A DNA stretch of 61,643 bases from a virus. Every line of letters starts with the position of its first letter. Within the stretch, counting starts at the first letter, position 1. This document shows, one piece after another, positions 1 through 61,643 of the stretch. The stretch covers positions 1-61,643 of the IMG/VR virus record IMGVR_UViG_3300034691_000060; one strand, 5' to 3'. The notes under the pieces are model-generated. The model was not told the DNA's origin, searched no databases, and saw only the letters and a list, made by a program, of their open reading frames with translations. The position numbers and the translations under genes are program-made.

Positions 1-127
1 GTGTTCCACGCGGATGCCTCGCGACATATTGGGAACTTGCATCCCGCCTTTCGGCGACGGCGGGTGCTGCTTTACGACCAGGTCTTTCGGATCGAGCATG
101 ACGATTACTCCACCGCAGCGGTCAGGT
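1..127. repeat. 127-bp exact overlap with the window end (61517..61643); circular-assembly junction
   Basis: First 127 nt read identical to last 127 nt. Unique unit is 61,516 bp. An operon runs across the junction: vWA stop at 105, next ATG at 99 (= 61615). Confidence 0.9.
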
Positions 128-1919
128 GCATGTCGCGCTTGCCGACGATCTCCGCCACCTTGACGAACGTGGTCTCGGCGAATTCGGTCAGGTTCTTGGT
201 CGTCACGTAGTTGGGGTAATAGTCCTTGACCGAATCGGTCATCAGCCCGATGCCGAACGTCTCGATGCCCATCTTCATCGCGGAGCGCACCACTTCCTTG
301 GTGTAGGATTGCAGCGCCACAGGATTGTCTCCCACGCAGCACGGCTGACCGTCGGACACCACGATCAGCAGCTTGCGTTTCTCGTAGCGCTTGTTGAGAT
401 CGAGCGCCGCCCAGACGATGGCATCGGGGTCGGCGTTGTTCTCGCCGACGAAGTCCGAGATCGCCATGAGCGAGCCGCGCGCCGCCGCCACGGTGTCTGT
501 CCACTCCTTGAATACGAACAGGCGCATCGCCTCGTAACGGGCAAACCCAAACCCGGTTGTCCGTATTGCGGCGCGCCTGCCCTCCTCCATGAACTTGGTG
601 TAGCGGCTGGCCAGCGACACCATGCTGCCGGCGGCATCCAAGGTCCGGAAGGTGTTGTCGAAGCCGACCACATGCACGGCGCAACCGATGCGCTCCAACA
701 CGATGGACAGCAGCGCCGTCACATCCCGTGCCAGGTCGACCTTCGAAGCCATCGAGCCGGACAGATCGATCAGGATGCTGACCGCCGTGTCGATCTCGGG
801 CGTCGCGGACCGGGTCTTGAACACCCGCTCCACCCCCTGTGCCGCTGCCACCAGGCGCTTGGAGTCCAGCCGCCCGACCGTGGCGCCGCCCGTCCACTCG
901 CGCTGCCGGTTGGCCAGCAAGGCCCGCTCCATGCGGCGGGAGATCACGCCGATCTTGCCGGACATGCGGGAGTAGAAGTCGGCCCACAGGCTCAGGCTTC
1001 CGCTCGCCATCTTGCGGGAGTACGCGTTGCCGTTGTCCCTGCGGTGGAACACCCGGTCGTACTCGGTCGTCCACACCAGGTAGTCGTTGCGCCCGGTGCG
1101 CTTGGTGCCACCCGCCGGCATGTGGCTATTCGGCAGGCTCTCCTTGCGGGCGGCATCGAAAATCGAGGCGGCTTTGCCGGGGCCGTCCATCTCGCTCTCC
1201 TCGCCCTCCTCCTCGCCCTCGCCCTCCGCTGAGGGCATGTCGGTGTCGCCGCCCTCGCCCTTGTCACCCTCACCCTCACCCTTGCCCTTGCCCTTGCCCT
1301 TGCGCTCCGGCATCTCCTTCGCCATCAGCCGAGCGACCTTGAGCACATCGGCCGACGACTCGCAGTCCAGCGCCTGCTTCACGAAGCGCTCCGCCAGGAC
1401 CAGGGTTTCCGTGTCGATCTTGTCGAGCACCGCCGCGGCATGCTCGCTCTCGATTCCGTAACGCTTGCGCCCCAGCAGCGCCGCCGCCAGGGGCAGCAGC
1501 TGGCCCGACGCCTTGAGCATGGCGAACGGCTGGTCCGCGATTAGCTCCGCCGTCTTGCGGTACGACGCACCCAGCGTGTCCTTGGCGCCGGGGTACAGGG
1601 CGATGTAGCCACGCTCCACCCGCAAGTCCTCCAACGCATCCAGCGCCACGGTCAGGGTGCCGCTGGGGTCCTCGCGCTGCGCCTGCTTCAGCACAGCGAT
1701 GTCGCTCTGCCGGATGTGCGCATCCTCGTGATCGATGTACCCACGATGGATGTCGACCTCCGCCTCCGTCATCTCCCCGCCCAGCGGGAGCGGCGGCACA
1801 TAGATCGTGTCGCCGTCGGTCTGCGGGACCGTGCCGTGGAACACCACCTTGCCCTTGGGCTTGCGACCCAGGGTCTTACTCACGCCCGTCGCCTCGGCTG
1901 CATACCTGTCGTTTCTCAT
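105..1919 (-). CDS. vWA-domain protein, CobT/NorD-like partner of the upstream AAA+ ATPase
   Basis: 604-aa ORF. MIDAS-type DxSxS motif (ILIDLSGSMAS). Gly/Lys/Glu low-complexity insert (KGKGKGKGEGEGD...EEGEESE). Sits directly downstream of the AAA+ gene. Confidence 0.85.
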   Translation of the reverse strand: MRNDRYAAEATGVSKTLGRKPKGKVVFHGTVPQTDGDTIYVPPLPLGGEMTEAEVDIHRGYIDHEDAHIRQSDIAVLKQAQREDPSGTLTVALDALEDLRVERGYIALYPGAKDTLGASYRKTAELIADQPFAMLKASGQLLPLAAALLGRKRYGIESEHAAAVLDKIDTETLVLAERFVKQALDCESSADVLKVARLMAKEMPERKGKGKGKGEGEGDKGEGGDTDMPSAEGEGEEEGEESEMDGPGKAASIFDAARKESLPNSHMPAGGTKRTGRNDYLVWTTEYDRVFHRRDNGNAYSRKMASGSLSLWADFYSRMSGKIGVISRRMERALLANRQREWTGGATVGRLDSKRLVAAAQGVERVFKTRSATPEIDTAVSILIDLSGSMASKVDLARDVTALLSIVLERIGCAVHVVGFDNTFRTLDAAGSMVSLASRYTKFMEEGRRAAIRTTGFGFARYEAMRLFVFKEWTDTVAAARGSLMAISDFVGENNADPDAIVWAALDLNKRYEKRKLLIVVSDGQPCCVGDNPVALQSYTKEVVRSAMKMGIETFGIGLMTDSVKDYYPNYVTTKNLTEFAETTFVKVAEIVGKRDMHLTAAVE

Positions 1920-1944
1920 GGCCCCAACCTCGTTGCTCGTTCAT

Positions 1945-1968
1945 CGAAAACCCCGAGTCCCTTCGGGG
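1945..1968 (-). terminator. hairpin plus U4 between the AAA+ and vWA genes (possible attenuator)
   Basis: Minus strand reads CCCCGA-AGGGAC-TCGGGG followed by UUUUCG. It contains copy 1 of the gene-boundary motif. Confidence 0.4.
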
Positions 1969-1983
1969 CGTGTGTCGTCGTGC

Positions 1984-3192
1984 CTACCCCAGCGCCCTCA
2001 CGGCAATGCCTTCCAGCACGGTGGCATCCTGCGCACTCGCCGCATTCAGCACGGTGGATTCGAGCGCCGCCTTCAATGCCTTGGCTTCGTCCTCGAAGAT
2101 CGGAAACAGAAACGCATACGCCCGGCCCATCGACACGATATTGCGGGGGCTCAGCGGGTGCATGATCTGCGCCGATTGGAACGCCTCCCGATGCTCCGCC
2201 ACGTAGCGCATCATTCGGGTGACGATGTGCTCCGGCAGCGACGGCACCCGGGACTTGAGCAGCTTCGCTTCCTGATCGACGTGCATGTAATCCACATGCA
2301 CCCAGGTCTGAAAGCGATTGAGAAAGGCAGCGCTCTGCACTCGTGCCCCGGGGTACAGCCCGGTATCGTCGCCGCCGCCCTTGGTATTCGCCGTCGCCAC
2401 GATGCGGCTGTAACGATGCGGCTGCACCAGGCGACCACCGTCCTCCGCCAACAGCAGGCCCTTCTCGTCCAGCGCCCGCTGCAAAACGTACATCACATCG
2501 GGTCGGCCGAAGTCGACCTCGTCCATGCAGATAATCGCCGGCTGCGCAATCCACTGCGGCAACACGCCCTCCACGAAGCGAGAGACTTGCTGCCCCGCAT
2601 CGTTCACCACCAGCGTGTCGCGGCCCATCAGATCCATTCGGCCGATCTCGCTGTCCATGCTGATCACGATGGTCGGCCAGTTCAGGCGAGCGGCAATTGC
2701 TTCGACCAGCGAGGTCTTGCCCACACCGGTATGCCCATGCAGCCAAGGCCGGCTGTTGTGCAGCAGCCCCATGAGCACGGGCAGCAGGGAGTTGGGCCGG
2801 AACACGTAGTCCGGATCGAGCGGCGGCACATTCGGGTGCGCCCCGTCCCACCTGAACACGGGGACCTCGAACTTGAGCATGTCCTTCGCCTTGACCAGCC
2901 CCAGCGCCGACCACGCCGGCACCATCTCGACGCCCAGCAACGCCGGGATCTCGCCGCTCGCCGCCATCGTCACCGGCGCTACCGGCACGGAGCGGGCCGA
3001 CTCCAGCTCGCCCAGCACGGCAGCCAGCTTGTCGGACAGCGACTCGTTCTGGTCTTCCAGCTGCCGGAACGCCTCCTCGAATTCGTTGATGGGCGCCAGC
3101 CCGGCCAGCTTCAGCACGCCATTGACGGTGGCGATGTCGATCCCCTTGCCGACGGAAGTGGACGGACGGGCAACGGCGGGTTTCTTAGCCAT
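1984..3192 (-). CDS. AAA+ ATPase, MoxR/CobS-like
   Basis: Walker A GHTGVGKTS, Walker B IICMDEVD, MoxR-like length (402 aa). Start chosen at MAKKPAV, preceded by AAGAGAACGCATC. Confidence 0.85.
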   Translation of the reverse strand: MAKKPAVARPSTSVGKGIDIATVNGVLKLAGLAPINEFEEAFRQLEDQNESLSDKLAAVLGELESARSVPVAPVTMAASGEIPALLGVEMVPAWSALGLVKAKDMLKFEVPVFRWDGAHPNVPPLDPDYVFRPNSLLPVLMGLLHNSRPWLHGHTGVGKTSLVEAIAARLNWPTIVISMDSEIGRMDLMGRDTLVVNDAGQQVSRFVEGVLPQWIAQPAIICMDEVDFGRPDVMYVLQRALDEKGLLLAEDGGRLVQPHRYSRIVATANTKGGGDDTGLYPGARVQSAAFLNRFQTWVHVDYMHVDQEAKLLKSRVPSLPEHIVTRMMRYVAEHREAFQSAQIMHPLSPRNIVSMGRAYAFLFPIFEDEAKALKAALESTVLNAASAQDATVLEGIAVRALG

Positions 3193-61111: not shown

Positions 61112-61114
61112 GCT

Positions 61115-61390
61115 TTACTCCCCGGAAGTGGCAGCGATGAAGTCGTCGAGCATATTGCGCAGACGCTTGGCATCGTCGGGGCGCAGCGACCAGCATTCCC
61201 AGTGCCCATACTGGCACTTGTAACCGAACAGGTATTTGATCGCCGCATTCGCCCGCTTCCTGAAGCCGCCGCTGGACAGGAAGATCGTGGTAAAGATGCC
61301 GGGCTCTTGCGGGTCGGTGTCCAGCGTAAAGCGCAGCGTATGTTCGTCGCTGCCGCATTCGCATTCGAAGAAGTAAGATCCGTTAAGCAT
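61115..61390 (-). CDS. hypothetical protein (91 aa)
   Basis: Leader GAGACACACAC. Confidence 0.6.
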   Translation of the reverse strand: MLNGSYFFECECGSDEHTLRFTLDTDPQEPGIFTTIFLSSGGFRKRANAAIKYLFGYKCQYGHWECWSLRPDDAKRLRNMLDDFIAATSGE

Positions 61391-61420
61391 GTGTGTGTCT
61401 CGCGTGTTAGTTGGTGGGGG

Positions 61421-61615
61421 CTACTCGACCAGCAATTCGAGAAGTGCCAGCGCATCCCTACGATTCTCGTGTTGCGTCCTGTACTTCGTGCATTCGACGG
61501 CGCACCCGGTGGGGATGTGTTCCACGCGGATGCCTCGCGACATATTGGGAACTTGCATCCCGCCTTTCGGCGACGGCGGGTGCTGCTTTACGACCAGGTC
61601 TTTCGGATCGAGCAT
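61421..61615 (-). CDS. stand-alone release-factor GGQ-domain (RF-1/PF00472-like) fragment with the GGQ replaced by GGMQ
   Basis: DLVVKQHPPSPKGGMQVPNMSRGIRVEHIPTGCAVECTKYRTQHENRRDALALL aligns by eye to RF1 [54 protein letters not shown]. Its start lies in the terminal overlap, 5 nt after the vWA stop. Confidence 0.75.
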   Translation of the reverse strand: MLDPKDLVVKQHPPSPKGGMQVPNMSRGIRVEHIPTGCAVECTKYRTQHENRRDALALLELLVE

Positions 61616-61643
61616 GACGATTACTCCACCGCAGCGGTCAGGT
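61517..61643. repeat. second copy of the 127-bp terminal overlap
   Basis: Identical to 1..127. Confidence 0.9.

What the first reader, a model, noticed from the sequence alone, without database searches (positions are those of the whole stretch)
1..61643. Palindromic heptamer CGTWACG is roughly six-fold over-represented and is built with rare codons
By reading the sequence I located at least 45 exact CGTAACG/CGTTACG sites. They start at 533, 1457, 3279, 4822, 7184, 8087, 9137, 9802, 10350, 13538, 16723, 18573, 21599, 22633, 23769, 24517, 26832, 28518, 31117, 33207, 34689, 36073, 36863, 37565, 39701, 40304, 41756, 42692, 42746, 43641, 44219, 45464, 46365, 48911, 49621, 50850, 52229, 53941, 55137, 55267, 56928, 57497, 57573, 58255 and 61032.

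A zero-order expectation at ~65% GC is about 7 sites in 61.5 kb. That is my estimate, not a computed statistic.

The sites lie in all three frames and in genes on both strands. Many are made with codons that a high-GC genome normally avoids:
- Leu-TTA in NCG-TTA-CGN at 13538, 28518, 31117 and 43641
- Val-GTA at 21599, 33207 and 34689
- three sites overlap TAA stop codons (3279, 22633, 24517)

This points to selection on the DNA word rather than on protein sequence. Phages usually deplete short palindromes to avoid restriction, so enrichment suggests a positive role. Possibilities include a binding site for a dimeric phage DNA-binding protein, a target of DNA modification, a condensation or packaging signal, or a host-specific signature word. 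The related hexamer CGTACG also clusters in the divergent control region (about 7085, 7250, 7264).
Basis: partly seen in the sequence, partly recalled or inferred. Interest (0 to 1): 0.8.

Follow-up and report, generated by a model that had tools for sequence, protein, structure and literature searches.

The report
Evenly spaced palindromic word in phage
An uncultured temperate phage carries the 7-base palindrome CGTWACG (more loosely YGTWACR) about ten times more often than expected and at unusually even intervals of roughly 0.85 kb, which points to a whole-genome DNA signal whose reader is still unknown.

Summary
There are 46 exact CGTWACG sites: the 45 listed plus one at 55936. Expected counts are 4.8 (dinucleotide shuffle), 9.9 (order-3 Markov), 9.8±2.2 (synonymous-codon shuffle) and 16.9±2.7 (dicodon shuffle).

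New findings:
1. The selected word is the symmetric YGTWACR. It has 72 sites against 16.4±2.9 expected. The double variant TGTWACA has 6 against 0.7.
2. The sites are strikingly evenly spaced. The coefficient of variation (CV) of the gaps is 0.55–0.60, against 0.97 for random placement and at least 0.82 for control words. The 26 variants sit in the gaps between canonical sites.
3. Sites are made with rare codons and also with amino-acid replacements. They ignore gene boundaries, frame and strand.
4. About 100 relatives lack the enrichment, including high-GC ones and the cultured Roseobacter phage CRP-810. The phage is a sequence singleton, so its host could not be found.
5. No methyltransferase, nuclease or matching DNA-binding protein is recognisable in the phage.

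Best reading: a positively selected "coverage" signal read as duplex DNA by a two-fold symmetric protein. Its format is that of restriction-modification sites. Its statistics resemble HIP1 and DNA uptake sequences. Whether the host genome carries the same word is untested.

The parts
533..539 (.). CGTAACG canonical site
   Evidence: CGT-TAC-G (RYE) in CobT-like gene 105-1919(-)
1457..1463 (.). CGTAACG canonical site
   Evidence: CGT-TAC-G (RYG) in 105-1919(-); relatives have D/S-Y-G here
2409..2415 (.). TGTAACG Y/R variant
3279..3285 (.). CGTTACG canonical site
   Evidence: overlaps TAA stop of 3281-3670(-)
4822..4828 (.). CGTTACG canonical site
   Evidence: CGT-AAC-G in 4202-5080(-)
7109..7115 (.). 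TGTTACG Y/R variant
   Evidence: intergenic
7184..7190 (.). CGTTACG canonical site
   Evidence: divergent intergenic region
7568..7574 (.). TGTAACG Y/R variant
   Evidence: intergenic
8087..8093 (.). CGTTACG canonical site
   Evidence: CGT-TAC-G in XRE-HTH gene 7667-8353(+)
9137..9143 (.). CGTAACG canonical site
   Evidence: CGT-AAC-G in 8858-9580(+)
9802..9808 (.). CGTTACG canonical site
   Evidence: GTC-GTT-ACG in 9776-9991(+)
10350..10356 (.). CGTAACG canonical site
   Evidence: CGT-AAC-G in 10236-10514(+)
12844..12850 (.). TGTTACG Y/R variant
   Evidence: ends the longest gap (2494 bp, across the terminase gene)
13538..13544 (.). CGTTACG canonical site
   Evidence: TCG-TTA-CGG (SLR) in portal; 80 relatives have R-[FMACL]-Q
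15280..15286 (.). CGTTACA Y/R variant
16365..16371 (.). CGTTACA Y/R variant
16723..16729 (.). CGTAACG canonical site
   Evidence: CGT-AAC-G in 16522-18387(+)
17823..17829 (.). TGTTACA double Y/R variant
18573..18579 (.). CGTAACG canonical site
   Evidence: CGT-AAC-G in 18414-18800(+)
19902..19908 (.). TGTAACA double Y/R variant
20268..20274 (.). TGTTACG Y/R variant
21599..21605 (.). CGTAACG canonical site
   Evidence: region without a confident gene call
22633..22639 (.). CGTAACG canonical site
   Evidence: overlaps TAA stop of 22212-22637(+)
23769..23775 (.). CGTTACG canonical site
   Evidence: CGT-TAC-GGG (RYG); relatives have RY[SRAK]
24053..24059 (.). CGTAACA Y/R variant
24517..24523 (.). 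CGTAACG canonical site
   Evidence: overlaps TAA stop of 23460-24521(+)
25627..25633 (.). CGTAACA Y/R variant
   Evidence: in major capsid gene
26832..26838 (.). CGTTACG canonical site
   Evidence: CGT-TAC-G in 26769-27158(+)
27787..27793 (.). CGTTACA Y/R variant
28518..28524 (.). CGTTACG canonical site
   Evidence: CCG-TTA-CGC in 27158-28660(+)
29339..29345 (.). TGTTACA double Y/R variant
30417..30423 (.). CGTTACA Y/R variant
31117..31123 (.). CGTTACG canonical site
   Evidence: GCG-TTA-CGG in 30249-31595(+)
31522..31528 (.). CGTTACA Y/R variant
32542..32548 (.). CGTTACA Y/R variant
33207..33213 (.). CGTAACG canonical site
   Evidence: GAC-GTA-ACG in SLT-domain gene 32830-34908(+)
34128..34134 (.). 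TGTAACG Y/R variant
34689..34695 (.). CGTAACG canonical site
   Evidence: GGC-GTA-ACG in 32830-34908(+)
36073..36079 (.). CGTTACG canonical site
   Evidence: TCC-GTT-ACG in giant gene 34919-46168(+)
36863..36869 (.). CGTAACG canonical site
   Evidence: CGT-AAC-G, giant gene
37565..37571 (.). CGTAACG canonical site
   Evidence: CGT-AAC-G, giant gene
38571..38577 (.). TGTTACG Y/R variant
   Evidence: fills the 2136-bp canonical gap 37565-39701
39701..39707 (.). CGTAACG canonical site
   Evidence: CGT-AAC-G, giant gene
40304..40310 (.). CGTTACG canonical site
   Evidence: CGT-TAC-G, giant gene
41756..41762 (.). CGTTACG canonical site
   Evidence: CGT-TAC-G, giant gene
42692..42698 (.). CGTAACG canonical site
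   Evidence: CGT-AAC-G, giant gene
42746..42752 (.). CGTAACG canonical site
   Evidence: one of only three close pairs (54 bp)
43641..43647 (.). CGTTACG canonical site
   Evidence: GCG-TTA-CGC, giant gene
44219..44225 (.). CGTAACG canonical site
   Evidence: CGT-AAC-G, giant gene
45464..45470 (.). CGTAACG canonical site
   Evidence: CGT-AAC-G, giant gene
45813..45819 (.). TGTTACA double Y/R variant
46365..46371 (.). CGTTACG canonical site
   Evidence: CGT-AAC-G in antirepressor gene (-)
47524..47530 (.). CGTTACA Y/R variant
   Evidence: fills the 2546-bp canonical gap 46365-48911
48911..48917 (.). CGTTACG canonical site
   Evidence: TGC-GTA-ACG in YqaJ exonuclease gene (-)
49621..49627 (.). 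CGTAACG canonical site
   Evidence: TCG-TTA-CGC in 49389-50087(-)
50850..50856 (.). CGTAACG canonical site
   Evidence: ACC-GTT-ACG in 50688-51068(-)
51133..51139 (.). CGTTACA Y/R variant
52229..52235 (.). CGTTACG canonical site
   Evidence: TAC-GTA-ACG in helicase gene (-)
52873..52879 (.). TGTAACG Y/R variant
53571..53577 (.). TGTAACA double Y/R variant
53941..53947 (.). CGTAACG canonical site
   Evidence: GCG-TTA-CGG in 53679-54035(-)
54551..54557 (.). CGTTACA Y/R variant
55137..55143 (.). CGTAACG canonical site
   Evidence: GCG-TTA-CGA in RepB-primase gene (-)
55267..55273 (.). CGTTACG canonical site
   Evidence: CGT-AAC-G in RepB-primase gene (-)
55936..55942 (.).
   Evidence: CTC-GTA-ACG in 55555-56049(-)
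56637..56643 (.). TGTTACA double Y/R variant
56928..56934 (.). CGTTACG canonical site
   Evidence: intergenic
57497..57503 (.). CGTTACG canonical site
   Evidence: ACC-GTA-ACG in 57470-57931(-)
57573..57579 (.). CGTAACG canonical site
   Evidence: GCG-TTA-CGC in 57470-57931(-)
58255..58261 (.). CGTAACG canonical site
   Evidence: ACC-GTT-ACG in 57928-58731(-)
60358..60364 (.). TGTAACG Y/R variant
   Evidence: in integrase gene
61032..61038 (.). CGTAACG canonical site
   Evidence: ACG-TTA-CGA in integrase gene (-)

Best explanation
YGTWACR, with C/G strongly preferred at the ends (CGTWACG), is a DNA-level signal under positive selection in this phage. It works as a 'coverage' signal: each stretch of roughly 1 kb needs one copy. 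This is why the 72 copies are spread quasi-regularly over the whole 61.5-kb circular genome regardless of genes, frames and strands.

The word is two-fold symmetric down to its degenerate positions. I infer that it is read as duplex DNA by a two-fold symmetric (homodimeric) protein.

The format is that of Type II restriction-modification specificities: 7 bp, odd length, W on the dyad, and Y...R at the ends. My most likely mechanism is therefore that the sites are targets of a methyltransferase-type enzyme, or a closely related site-specific binder, belonging to this particular phage-host pair. The whole chromosome would then carry a regularly spaced mark. The nearest analogue is HIP1 with its cognate methyltransferases in cyanobacteria.

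Shown: the enrichment, the selection at codon and amino-acid level, the symmetry, the even spacing, and the restriction to this lineage. Inferred: the dimeric reader, the enzyme type, and the benefit of the mark.
For: - Enrichment survives every null tested.
- YGTWACR has 72 sites against 16.4±2.9 expected. The double variant TGTWACA has 6 against 0.69±0.77, with a maximum of 3 in 400 shuffles. GTWAC with other flanks is not enriched: 16 against 20.7.
- No conserved flank exists beyond the 7 bp.
- The central base is A in 20 and T in 20 coding sites when read on the sense strand, so there is no RNA-level or strand polarity.
- Spacing of the canonical sites: CV 0.60 against 0.97±0.13 for random placement (P=4e-4). 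Gaps under 500 bp number 3 against 14 expected. The largest gap is 3188 bp against 5917 expected.
- Control 6-mers of similar copy number have CV 1.13, minimum 0.82.
- The union of 72 sites has CV 0.553. Adding 26 random sites to the 46 gives 0.78±0.05 (P<5e-5). Variants lie a median 670 bp from the nearest canonical site, against 371 bp for random positions.
- Sites scale with DNA length, not gene number; the 11.25-kb gene has 13.
- Amino-acid replacements create sites in conserved proteins. Only 40 of 146 synonymous opportunities are used, so the word is placed where needed rather than everywhere.
- The enrichment is absent from about 100 relatives, including ones at 64-66% GC with 0-0.05 sites per kb.
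- GTWAC and GTNAC are reported as methylated motifs without a known methyltransferase in marine metagenome-assembled genomes (PMC8919816).
Against: - No methyltransferase, nuclease or plausible short-site binder was detected in any ORF by Pfam, PHROGs or PDB sequence search.
- A methylation mark has no obvious need for even spacing.
- Enrichment of the T variants could reflect tolerance by a binder rather than deamination of 5-methylcytosine.
- No modification data exist.
- The host genome could not be examined, so passive inheritance of a host-wide word is not excluded.
Confidence: 0.45

Rival explanations
1. Host-genome signature word. The host chromosome itself is saturated with CGTWACG, as cyanobacteria are with HIP1 or Pasteurellaceae and Neisseriaceae with uptake sequences. 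The temperate phage acquired the word while resident as a prophage, through the same molecular drive or repair bias, without any phage-specific function.
For: - The phage has a tyrosine integrase and an antirepressor, so it is probably temperate.
- The enrichment is confined to this lineage and absent from relatives in other hosts.
- A density of 0.75-1.2 per kb, together with even spacing, matches what is described for uptake sequences: 1471 copies in H. influenzae and 'significant even spacing' (PMC1939737).
- One-letter deviations concentrate at the first and last letters, as I recall is reported for HIP1.
- No reader is encoded by the phage.
Against: - HIP1-type words are reported to be missing from prophages and genomic islands, not saturating them (PMC3025956; only its abstract was seen, the rest is my own knowledge).
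- A CV of 0.55 is a very tight array for a passive passenger.
- Amino-acid replacements in capsid-module proteins imply a strong local drive.
- No known uptake sequence is a palindrome (PMC1939737).
- The host is unknown, so there is no positive evidence.
Confidence: 0.25
2. Architectural or silencing sites for a small phage-encoded dimeric DNA-binding protein. The sites would act as nucleation points from which a protein coats, condenses or road-blocks the chromosome. This would resemble the stoperators of Cluster A mycobacteriophages or phage histone-like proteins.
For: - Even coverage is what a nucleation or road-block array needs.
- Graded tolerance of T/A at the ends looks like a binding-energy landscape.
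- Many small ORFs of unknown function are specific to this phage.
Against: - Seven base pairs is short for known phage repressors.
- The control region has separate 16-bp operator-like palindromes.
- 87% of sites lie inside genes with no preference for intergenic DNA and no orientation, unlike stoperators (stoperator properties from my own knowledge).
- No ribbon-helix-helix, AbrB or other short-site binder was detected.
Confidence: 0.2
3. A signal read on single-stranded DNA: either a Chi-like site that stops the host RecBCD/AddAB nuclease, or a start site for the phage RepB-type primase. Being palindromic, it would work in both directions on a circularly permuted genome.
For: - Both roles demand one site per kb or so, on both strands.
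- The phage encodes a RepB-like primase, an SF2 helicase and a DnaD-like loader.
- The assembly is circular.
Against: - The double variant TGTWACA is enriched nine-fold. This shows matched degeneracy at both ends, a property of duplex recognition by a symmetric dimer, not of single-strand recognition.
- Known Chi sites and primase sites are asymmetric, and primase sites are 3-5 nt long (own knowledge).
- The phage has its own recombination genes: a YqaJ exonuclease (PF09588), a second exonuclease-family protein (phrog_7838) and SSB.
- Relatives of the helicase show no enrichment.
- The central A/T shows no block pattern along the genome.
Confidence: 0.06
4. No function: the count is a by-product of codon usage, dinucleotide bias or a mutational hotspot process, for example decay of methylated GCWGC to GTWAC.
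For: - High-GC genomes have strong context biases.
- The dicodon null raises the expectation to 16.9.
Against: - The observed 46 is more than 10 sd above every null.
- The proposed intermediates CGCWACG and CGTWGCG are not enriched.
- High-GC relatives have 0-0.05 sites per kb.
- Neither even spacing nor amino-acid replacements can come from mutation bias.
Confidence: 0.02

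Closest known systems
HIP1 (GCGATCGC), the highly iterated palindrome of cyanobacteria, and its cognate orphan methyltransferases
   Same: - A short GC-flanked palindrome, over-represented many-fold and present inside genes in all frames.
- One-letter deviants concentrate at the outermost letters (the HIP1 property is from my own knowledge of Elhai 2015).
- An embedded methyltransferase site: CGATCG methylation within HIP1 is stated in PMC6604393 and PMC6105098.
   Different: - HIP1 is a property of bacterial chromosomes and is reported to be lacking in prophages and islands. 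Here the word is seen in a phage and the host is unknown.
- No methyltransferase was found here.
- This word is an odd-length, W-centred heptamer.
- Strong regular spacing is shown here. I do not know of an equivalent result for HIP1.
DNA uptake sequences (USS of Pasteurellaceae, DUS of Neisseriaceae)
   Same: - A density of about 1 per kb, location mostly inside genes, and no orientation bias.
- Significant even spacing.
- Over-representation of near-variants, and accommodation in proteins through tolerated amino-acid changes (PMC1939737).
   Different: - Uptake sequences are 9-12 nt and not palindromic.
- They belong to competent bacteria with a specific receptor.
- Nothing here links the phage or its unknown host to competence.
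Type II restriction-modification recognition sites of the CGGWCCG (RsrII) / RGGWCCY (PpuMI) format
   Same: Seven base pairs, a dyad through a central W, and symmetric Y/R degeneracy at the ends. This is the hallmark of homodimeric enzymes reading duplex DNA (own knowledge of the enzyme specificities).
   Different: - Phages normally avoid such sites. Here the word is enriched about ten-fold and evenly spaced.
- No enzyme of this specificity is known to me or found in the literature search.
- No cognate gene is present in the window.
Chi sites
   Same: A short over-represented word whose benefit depends on having a copy near any DNA end.
   Different: Chi is asymmetric, is read on one DNA strand and is orientation-biased. 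This word is symmetric, including its degeneracy.
Stoperators of Cluster A mycobacteriophages
   Same: Dozens of copies of one short site dispersed over a whole temperate phage genome.
   Different: Stoperators are 13-bp asymmetric sites, lie mostly between genes, are oriented with transcription and are bound by the phage repressor (own knowledge). The sites here are 7-bp palindromes, mostly inside genes.

Membership tests
HIP-type highly iterated palindrome | GC-rich palindrome over-represented many-fold beyond composition and codon usage | tested here: met
   46 observed against 4.3-16.9 expected under five nulls
HIP-type highly iterated palindrome | Over-representation is genome-wide in the cellular (host) chromosome | not testable with these tools
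   Host not identifiable. All 12 proteins looked up (of 14 submitted) are singletons at 90% identity, and there is no tRNA or attachment-site clue
HIP-type highly iterated palindrome | A methyltransferase recognising the word or its core is encoded in the same genome | tested here: not met
   No methyltransferase domain in any window ORF searched. The host genome is untested
HIP-type highly iterated palindrome | One-letter deviants biased to the first and last letters | tested here: met
   TGTWACG/CGTWACA: 20 observed against 5.2-6.0 expected. No other single-letter variant is clearly enriched (the next highest, AGTAACG, is 4 against 1.7 expected)
DNA uptake sequence | About one copy per kb with more even spacing than random | tested here: met
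   0.75 per kb (canonical) and 1.17 per kb (YGTWACR); CV 0.60 and 0.55, P<=4e-4
DNA uptake sequence | Asymmetric 9-12 nt word present in both orientations | tested here: not met
   The word is a 7-bp palindrome with no conserved flank
DNA uptake sequence | Host is naturally competent and takes up DNA carrying the word preferentially | not testable with these tools
   Host unknown
Chi site | Asymmetric word recognised on one strand, with orientation bias | tested here: not met
   Palindrome with symmetric degeneracy: TGTWACA 6 against 0.69. The centre base is 25 A to 21 T on the + strand with no blocks
Type II restriction-modification target | 4-8 bp palindrome, possibly with symmetric degenerate positions | tested here: met
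   YGTWACR
Type II restriction-modification target | Cognate methyltransferase or endonuclease gene present | tested here: not met
   None detected in the window (same calls as above). No published enzyme or motif CGTWACG was found
Type II restriction-modification target | DNA is actually modified or cut at the word | not testable with these tools
   Needs SMRT/nanopore kinetics or digestion of virion DNA
Stoperator-type repressor array | Sites lie mainly between genes and are oriented with transcription | tested here: not met
   40 of 46 canonical sites are inside coding sequence. The sites are palindromic. Density per kb is similar inside and outside genes
Stoperator-type repressor array | Same sequence as the operator at the early promoters | tested here: not met
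   The control region's repeated element is a different 16-bp palindrome, at 7124-7141 and 7156-7173

The most novel reading that the evidence does not exclude
The phage runs its own genome-wide 'coverage code'. One symmetric YGTWACR word about every 0.85 kb would be read by a so far unrecognisable phage-encoded dimeric protein. That protein would mark, coat or otherwise service every kilobase of the chromosome, for example as protection from host nucleases or for condensation. This would be a class of phage cis-element not described before, with a specificity that arose recently in this lineage.
Probability: 0.3. Interest if true: 0.85.

Novelty: new variant of a known kind. Interest (0 to 1): 0.66.

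Why it matters
Over-represented short words such as Chi, uptake sequences and HIP1 are among the few genome-wide signals known in prokaryotes. The purpose of HIP1 is still debated. Phages are expected to lose short palindromes, not to accumulate them.

A phage that builds a regularly spaced array of one palindrome, paying with rare codons and amino-acid changes, shows that some process needs a site in every kilobase of its DNA.

The array is also a practical handle. The word could serve as a host-linking signature in the source metagenome and as a predicted modification motif for long-read data.

Tried and rejected
Close relatives:
- Megablast of 20 kb against 50,697 phage records found nothing.
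- The nearest portal in 5.8 billion proteins is 71% identical and the nearest helicase 49%.
- All 12 window proteins found in the 90%-identity look-up are singleton clusters, apart from the same contig's Logan/JGI copy of the primase.

Host identification:
- No tRNA and no Rfam match or tRNA fragment for an attachment site.
- Integrase, antirepressor, helicase and primase have only distant hits in cultured phages of mixed hosts.
- The run accession SRR10968153 appears in no paper.
- The single genome scan returned 15 distant relatives in Gamma- and Alphaproteobacteria, none with the word.

Linking the word to a gene module: portal relatives and helicase relatives both lack it. A viral-contig scan with the helicase found nothing.

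Searching for a reader: Pfam, PHROGs and PDB sequence searches of about 60 ORFs gave no methyltransferase, nuclease or short-site binder.

Literature: no paper mentions CGTWACG as a motif. One hit is CCGtWaCGG, assigned to CueR in Shewanella, and is irrelevant.

Ideas rejected:
- A longer motif: there is no flank information.
- A gene-linked or RNA-level signal.
- A decay product of methylated GCWGC.
- A sequencing artefact. The JGI and Logan short-read assemblies of the contig encode identical products for 11 of the 12 window proteins looked up (the primase differs by <10%), and the 127-bp overlap points to a k=127 short-read assembly.
- A shared 'dialect' system with the CAGACG-type words of relatives. 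Those words are asymmetric and not evenly spaced in CRP-810 (CV 1.1).

Not attempted: multi-site DNA pattern scans of the public collections. Expected background matches would swamp any true host contig.

Full report
**What the window is.** The 61,643-base window is a circular assembly. Its first and last 127 bases are identical, so the true length is 61,516 bp. GC content is 64.3%.

It is a complete phage genome from a metagenome. The same contig exists in JGI and in the Logan assembly of run SRR10968153. My gene calls were trained on the window's own codon usage. Twelve of fourteen tested products match, residue for residue, proteins in the public protein collection (JGI and/or Logan gene calls).

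The layout is:
- A left minus-strand arm (105-6987) with CobT-like and AAA/CobS-like genes.
- A plus-strand arm (7667-46168). It holds an XRE-type HTH gene, a large terminase with an intein-like Hint domain, an SU10-type portal and major capsid protein, a lytic transglycosylase and a 3,749-residue ORF.
- A right minus-strand arm (46165-61615). It holds an antirepressor, SSB, a YqaJ exonuclease, an SF2 helicase, a RepB-type primase, a DnaD-like protein and a tyrosine integrase.

The nearest cultured relative is Roseobacter phage CRP-810, with 65% portal identity and 52.8% GC. It shares only the structural core, CobS/CobT and the integrase.

**The count is real and not explained by composition or coding.** All 45 listed sites are exact, and a 46th lies at 55936. 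The expectations are:

| Null model | Expected CGTWACG |
|---|---|
| Zero order | 7.5 |
| Dinucleotide shuffle | 4.8±2.1 |
| Order-3 Markov | 9.9 |
| Markov, sites masked | 4.3-5.0 |
| Synonymous codons permuted within each gene | 9.8±2.2 |
| Third bases permuted within identical contexts (keeps protein, codon usage, dinucleotides) | 16.9±2.7 |

The last two nulls leave untouched the six sites that are not fully inside shuffled codons, so they are conservative.

Codon choice shows the selection directly. Arg-Asn followed by a G-initial codon is written CGT-AAC in 14 of 18 cases, although CGT is only 8% of Arg codons. Nine of the 43 TTA codons sit in CG-TTA-CG.

Selection also reaches the protein. 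At portal residues 296-298 the window has Ser-Leu-Arg (TCG-TTA-CGG), where 79 of 81 aligned relatives (80 loci plus CRP-810) have Arg-X-Gln. At two other sites the flanking residue was changed to supply the needed CGT or G.

The central letter matters. CGTSACG occurs 4 times against 12.1±2.9 expected. No base outside the heptamer is conserved.

**The selected word is the symmetric YGTWACR.** Among the single-letter variants, the transition at the outermost letter is the only one clearly enriched. TGTWACG/CGTWACA has 20 sites against 5.2-6.0 expected. The double variant TGTWACA is enriched nine-fold: 6 against 0.69±0.77, and never more than 3 in 400 shuffles. GTWAC with other flanks is not enriched: 16 against 20.7.

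In total there are 72 YGTWACR sites against 16.4±2.9 expected. C/G ends make up 78% of the ends, more than composition predicts. Matched degeneracy at both ends, a dyad through the central W, and equal use of A and T on the sense strand (20:20) all indicate recognition of duplex DNA by a two-fold symmetric protein. They argue against any signal read on one strand or on RNA.

**The sites form a quasi-regular array.** This is the most informative new result.

- For the 46 canonical sites the CV of the gaps is 0.60. Random placement gives 0.97±0.13 (P=4e-4).
- Only 3 gaps are under 500 bp, where 14 are expected.
- The largest gap is 3.2 kb against 5.9 kb expected.
- One hundred and fifty control hexamers with 40-55 copies have a mean CV of 1.13 and never fall below 0.82.

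The 26 Y/R variants fall into the spaces between canonical sites. The union has a CV of 0.553, whereas adding 26 random positions to the 46 gives 0.78±0.05 (P<5e-5). The median distance from a variant to the nearest canonical site is 670 bp, against 371 bp at random (P=0.002). Either the variants work, or they are recently decayed members of the same array.

Most gaps are between 0.55 and 1.4 kb. The array follows DNA length, not genes. The 11.25-kb gene has 13 sites, 33 of 72 genes have none, sites are spread uniformly along genes, and all four genome modules have 0.7-1.4 sites per kb. Only 40 of 146 places where synonymous codons could spell the word actually do so. This fits 'one site where one is needed' rather than maximisation.

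**The enrichment is confined to this lineage.**

- CRP-810 has 17 sites against 17.1±3.3 expected.
- Eighty viral contigs with 63-71% portal identity have 115 sites in 762 kb, or 0.15 per kb.
- The closest relative (L003, 71% identity, 62% GC) has none in 6.5 kb.
- Fifteen relatives in bacterial assemblies include three at 64-66% GC with 0-0.05 sites per kb.
- Phages sharing the helicase at 47-49% identity also lack the enrichment.

So base composition, the structural module and the helicase family are all excluded as causes.

The phage is a singleton. The nearest portal is 71% identical and the nearest helicase 49%. All 12 proteins found in the look-up are alone in their 90% clusters. There is no tRNA, attachment-site clue or literature record. 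The host could therefore not be identified.

**Who reads the word?** No methyltransferase, nuclease, ribbon-helix-helix or other short-site binder was found. I searched about 60 ORFs with Pfam, PHROGs or PDB sequences.

The divergent control region (6988-7666) contains two copies of a 16-bp palindrome, ATAAGCCTGGCCTTAT at 7124 and a near copy at 7156. These are the natural operators for the adjacent XRE-type repressor and are unrelated to the heptamer. The three CGTACG copies there are real (7085, 7250, 7262). However, CGTACG is depleted in the genome as a whole, at 9 against 20.3±3.4, so I see no reason to treat it as a relative of the enriched word.

**Interpretation.** Shown:
- positive selection for a symmetric 7-bp word;
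- the need for roughly one copy per kilobase everywhere in the chromosome;
- a recent, lineage-specific origin.

Inferred:
- a homodimeric reader of duplex DNA;
- from the format (odd length, W on the dyad, Y...R ends, as in RsrII CGGWCCG or PpuMI RGGWCCY, cited from my own knowledge), an enzyme or binder of the restriction-modification type.

GTWAC and GTNAC have been reported as methylated motifs with no known methyltransferase in marine genomes (PMC8919816).

The closest statistical analogues are HIP1 of cyanobacteria and DNA uptake sequences. HIP1 is a palindrome that embeds a methyltransferase site, with deviants at its outer letters. Uptake sequences occur about once per kb, with 'significant even spacing' and over-represented near-variants (PMC1939737). 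Both are properties of bacterial chromosomes.

I therefore keep a 25% rival that the host genome is saturated with the word and the prophage shares it passively. The tightness of the array and the amino-acid replacements in virion genes make me favour direct selection on the phage.

Models that read single-stranded DNA, such as Chi or primase start sites, are disfavoured by the symmetric degeneracy. Mutation or codon bias is excluded.

**Verdict.** The finding is genuine, statistically extreme and richer than reported. It is a new variant of the 'over-represented genomic word' phenomenon, seen here in a phage, as a palindrome, and with unusually regular spacing.

Noticed in passing
window, minus strand, e.g. 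3205, 5602, 5811, 6341-6364, 6846, 54533, 58735-58755, 59452, 61390: ACACACA(C) occurs 27 times against 3.7 expected, and 25 of the copies are on the minus strand. Many lie 0-20 nt upstream of ATG starts of the non-structural minus-strand genes, for example GACACACACATGG or ACACACAGGAGA..ATG. It looks like a start-associated, CA-rich translation-initiation word specific to the early and lysogeny arms.
   Followed up: partly
window 1-127 and 61517-61643: The two ends share an exact 127-bp overlap. The contig is a circular assembly with a true length of 61,516 bp. The Logan assembly of the same run gives 61,546 bp in a different rotation.
   Followed up: yes
window 7124-7141 and 7156-7173: Two copies of a 16-bp palindrome lie 32 bp apart in the divergent intergenic region: ATAAGCCTGGCCTTAT and ATAAGCTGGGCCTTAT. 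They are probably the operators of the XRE-type repressor at 7667-8353.
   Followed up: partly
95 related loci (L003-L082, L084-L098), CRP-810 (L001/L002) and the window: CGTACG is almost absent from the phage family: 19 sites against about 234 expected in 942 kb. This is a strong avoidance signature. In CRP-810 it is enriched instead (79 against 31.5±4.2 by synonymous shuffle). In the window it is two-fold depleted (9 against 20.3).
   Followed up: partly
CRP-810 and many related loci (e.g. L011, L039, L041, L047, L066, L073; L003; L004; L088; L092): Relatives carry their own over-represented asymmetric words. CAGACG is enriched in CRP-810 (160 against 71±7 by synonymous shuffle) and in relatives of 38-56% GC. 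Other cases are TAGACG in L004/L005/L061, AAGACG in L003 (21 against 3), TCGACG in L088, and CACGCTC in the Poseidonocella prophage L092 (44 against 6). In CRP-810 the word is not evenly spaced (CV 1.1). The cause is unknown.
   Followed up: partly
window 10575-12617: The large terminase gene carries a Hint_2 (intein-like) domain at residues 201-238. It is also the longest stretch of the genome without any YGTWACR site (2494 bp).
   Followed up: no
window 34919-46168: A 3,749-residue ORF makes up 18% of the genome. It has no Pfam or PDB sequence match and only faint PHROG hits near the C-terminus. About 890 of its residues are 31% identical to CRP-810 DNA in the tblastn comparison (the CRP-810 gene hit was not identified); CRP-810's largest ORF is the 2,016-residue gp35. 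It is presumably an ejected internal virion protein.
   Followed up: partly
window 61421-61615 (-): A 64-residue ORF immediately downstream of the CobT-like gene across the circular junction matches the RF-1/GGQ peptidyl-tRNA hydrolase domain (E=2.5e-10). It is a miniature ArfB-like protein in a phage.
   Followed up: no
window, genome-wide: CGTSACG, the same palindrome with C or G at the centre, is depleted three-fold (4 against 12.1±2.9). GTSAC is mildly depleted (64 against 82). This is the opposite of the W-centred word.
   Followed up: partly
window 24832-24941: A 39-bp unit is repeated 2.7 times in the 0.7-kb non-coding stretch upstream of the major capsid gene.
   Followed up: no
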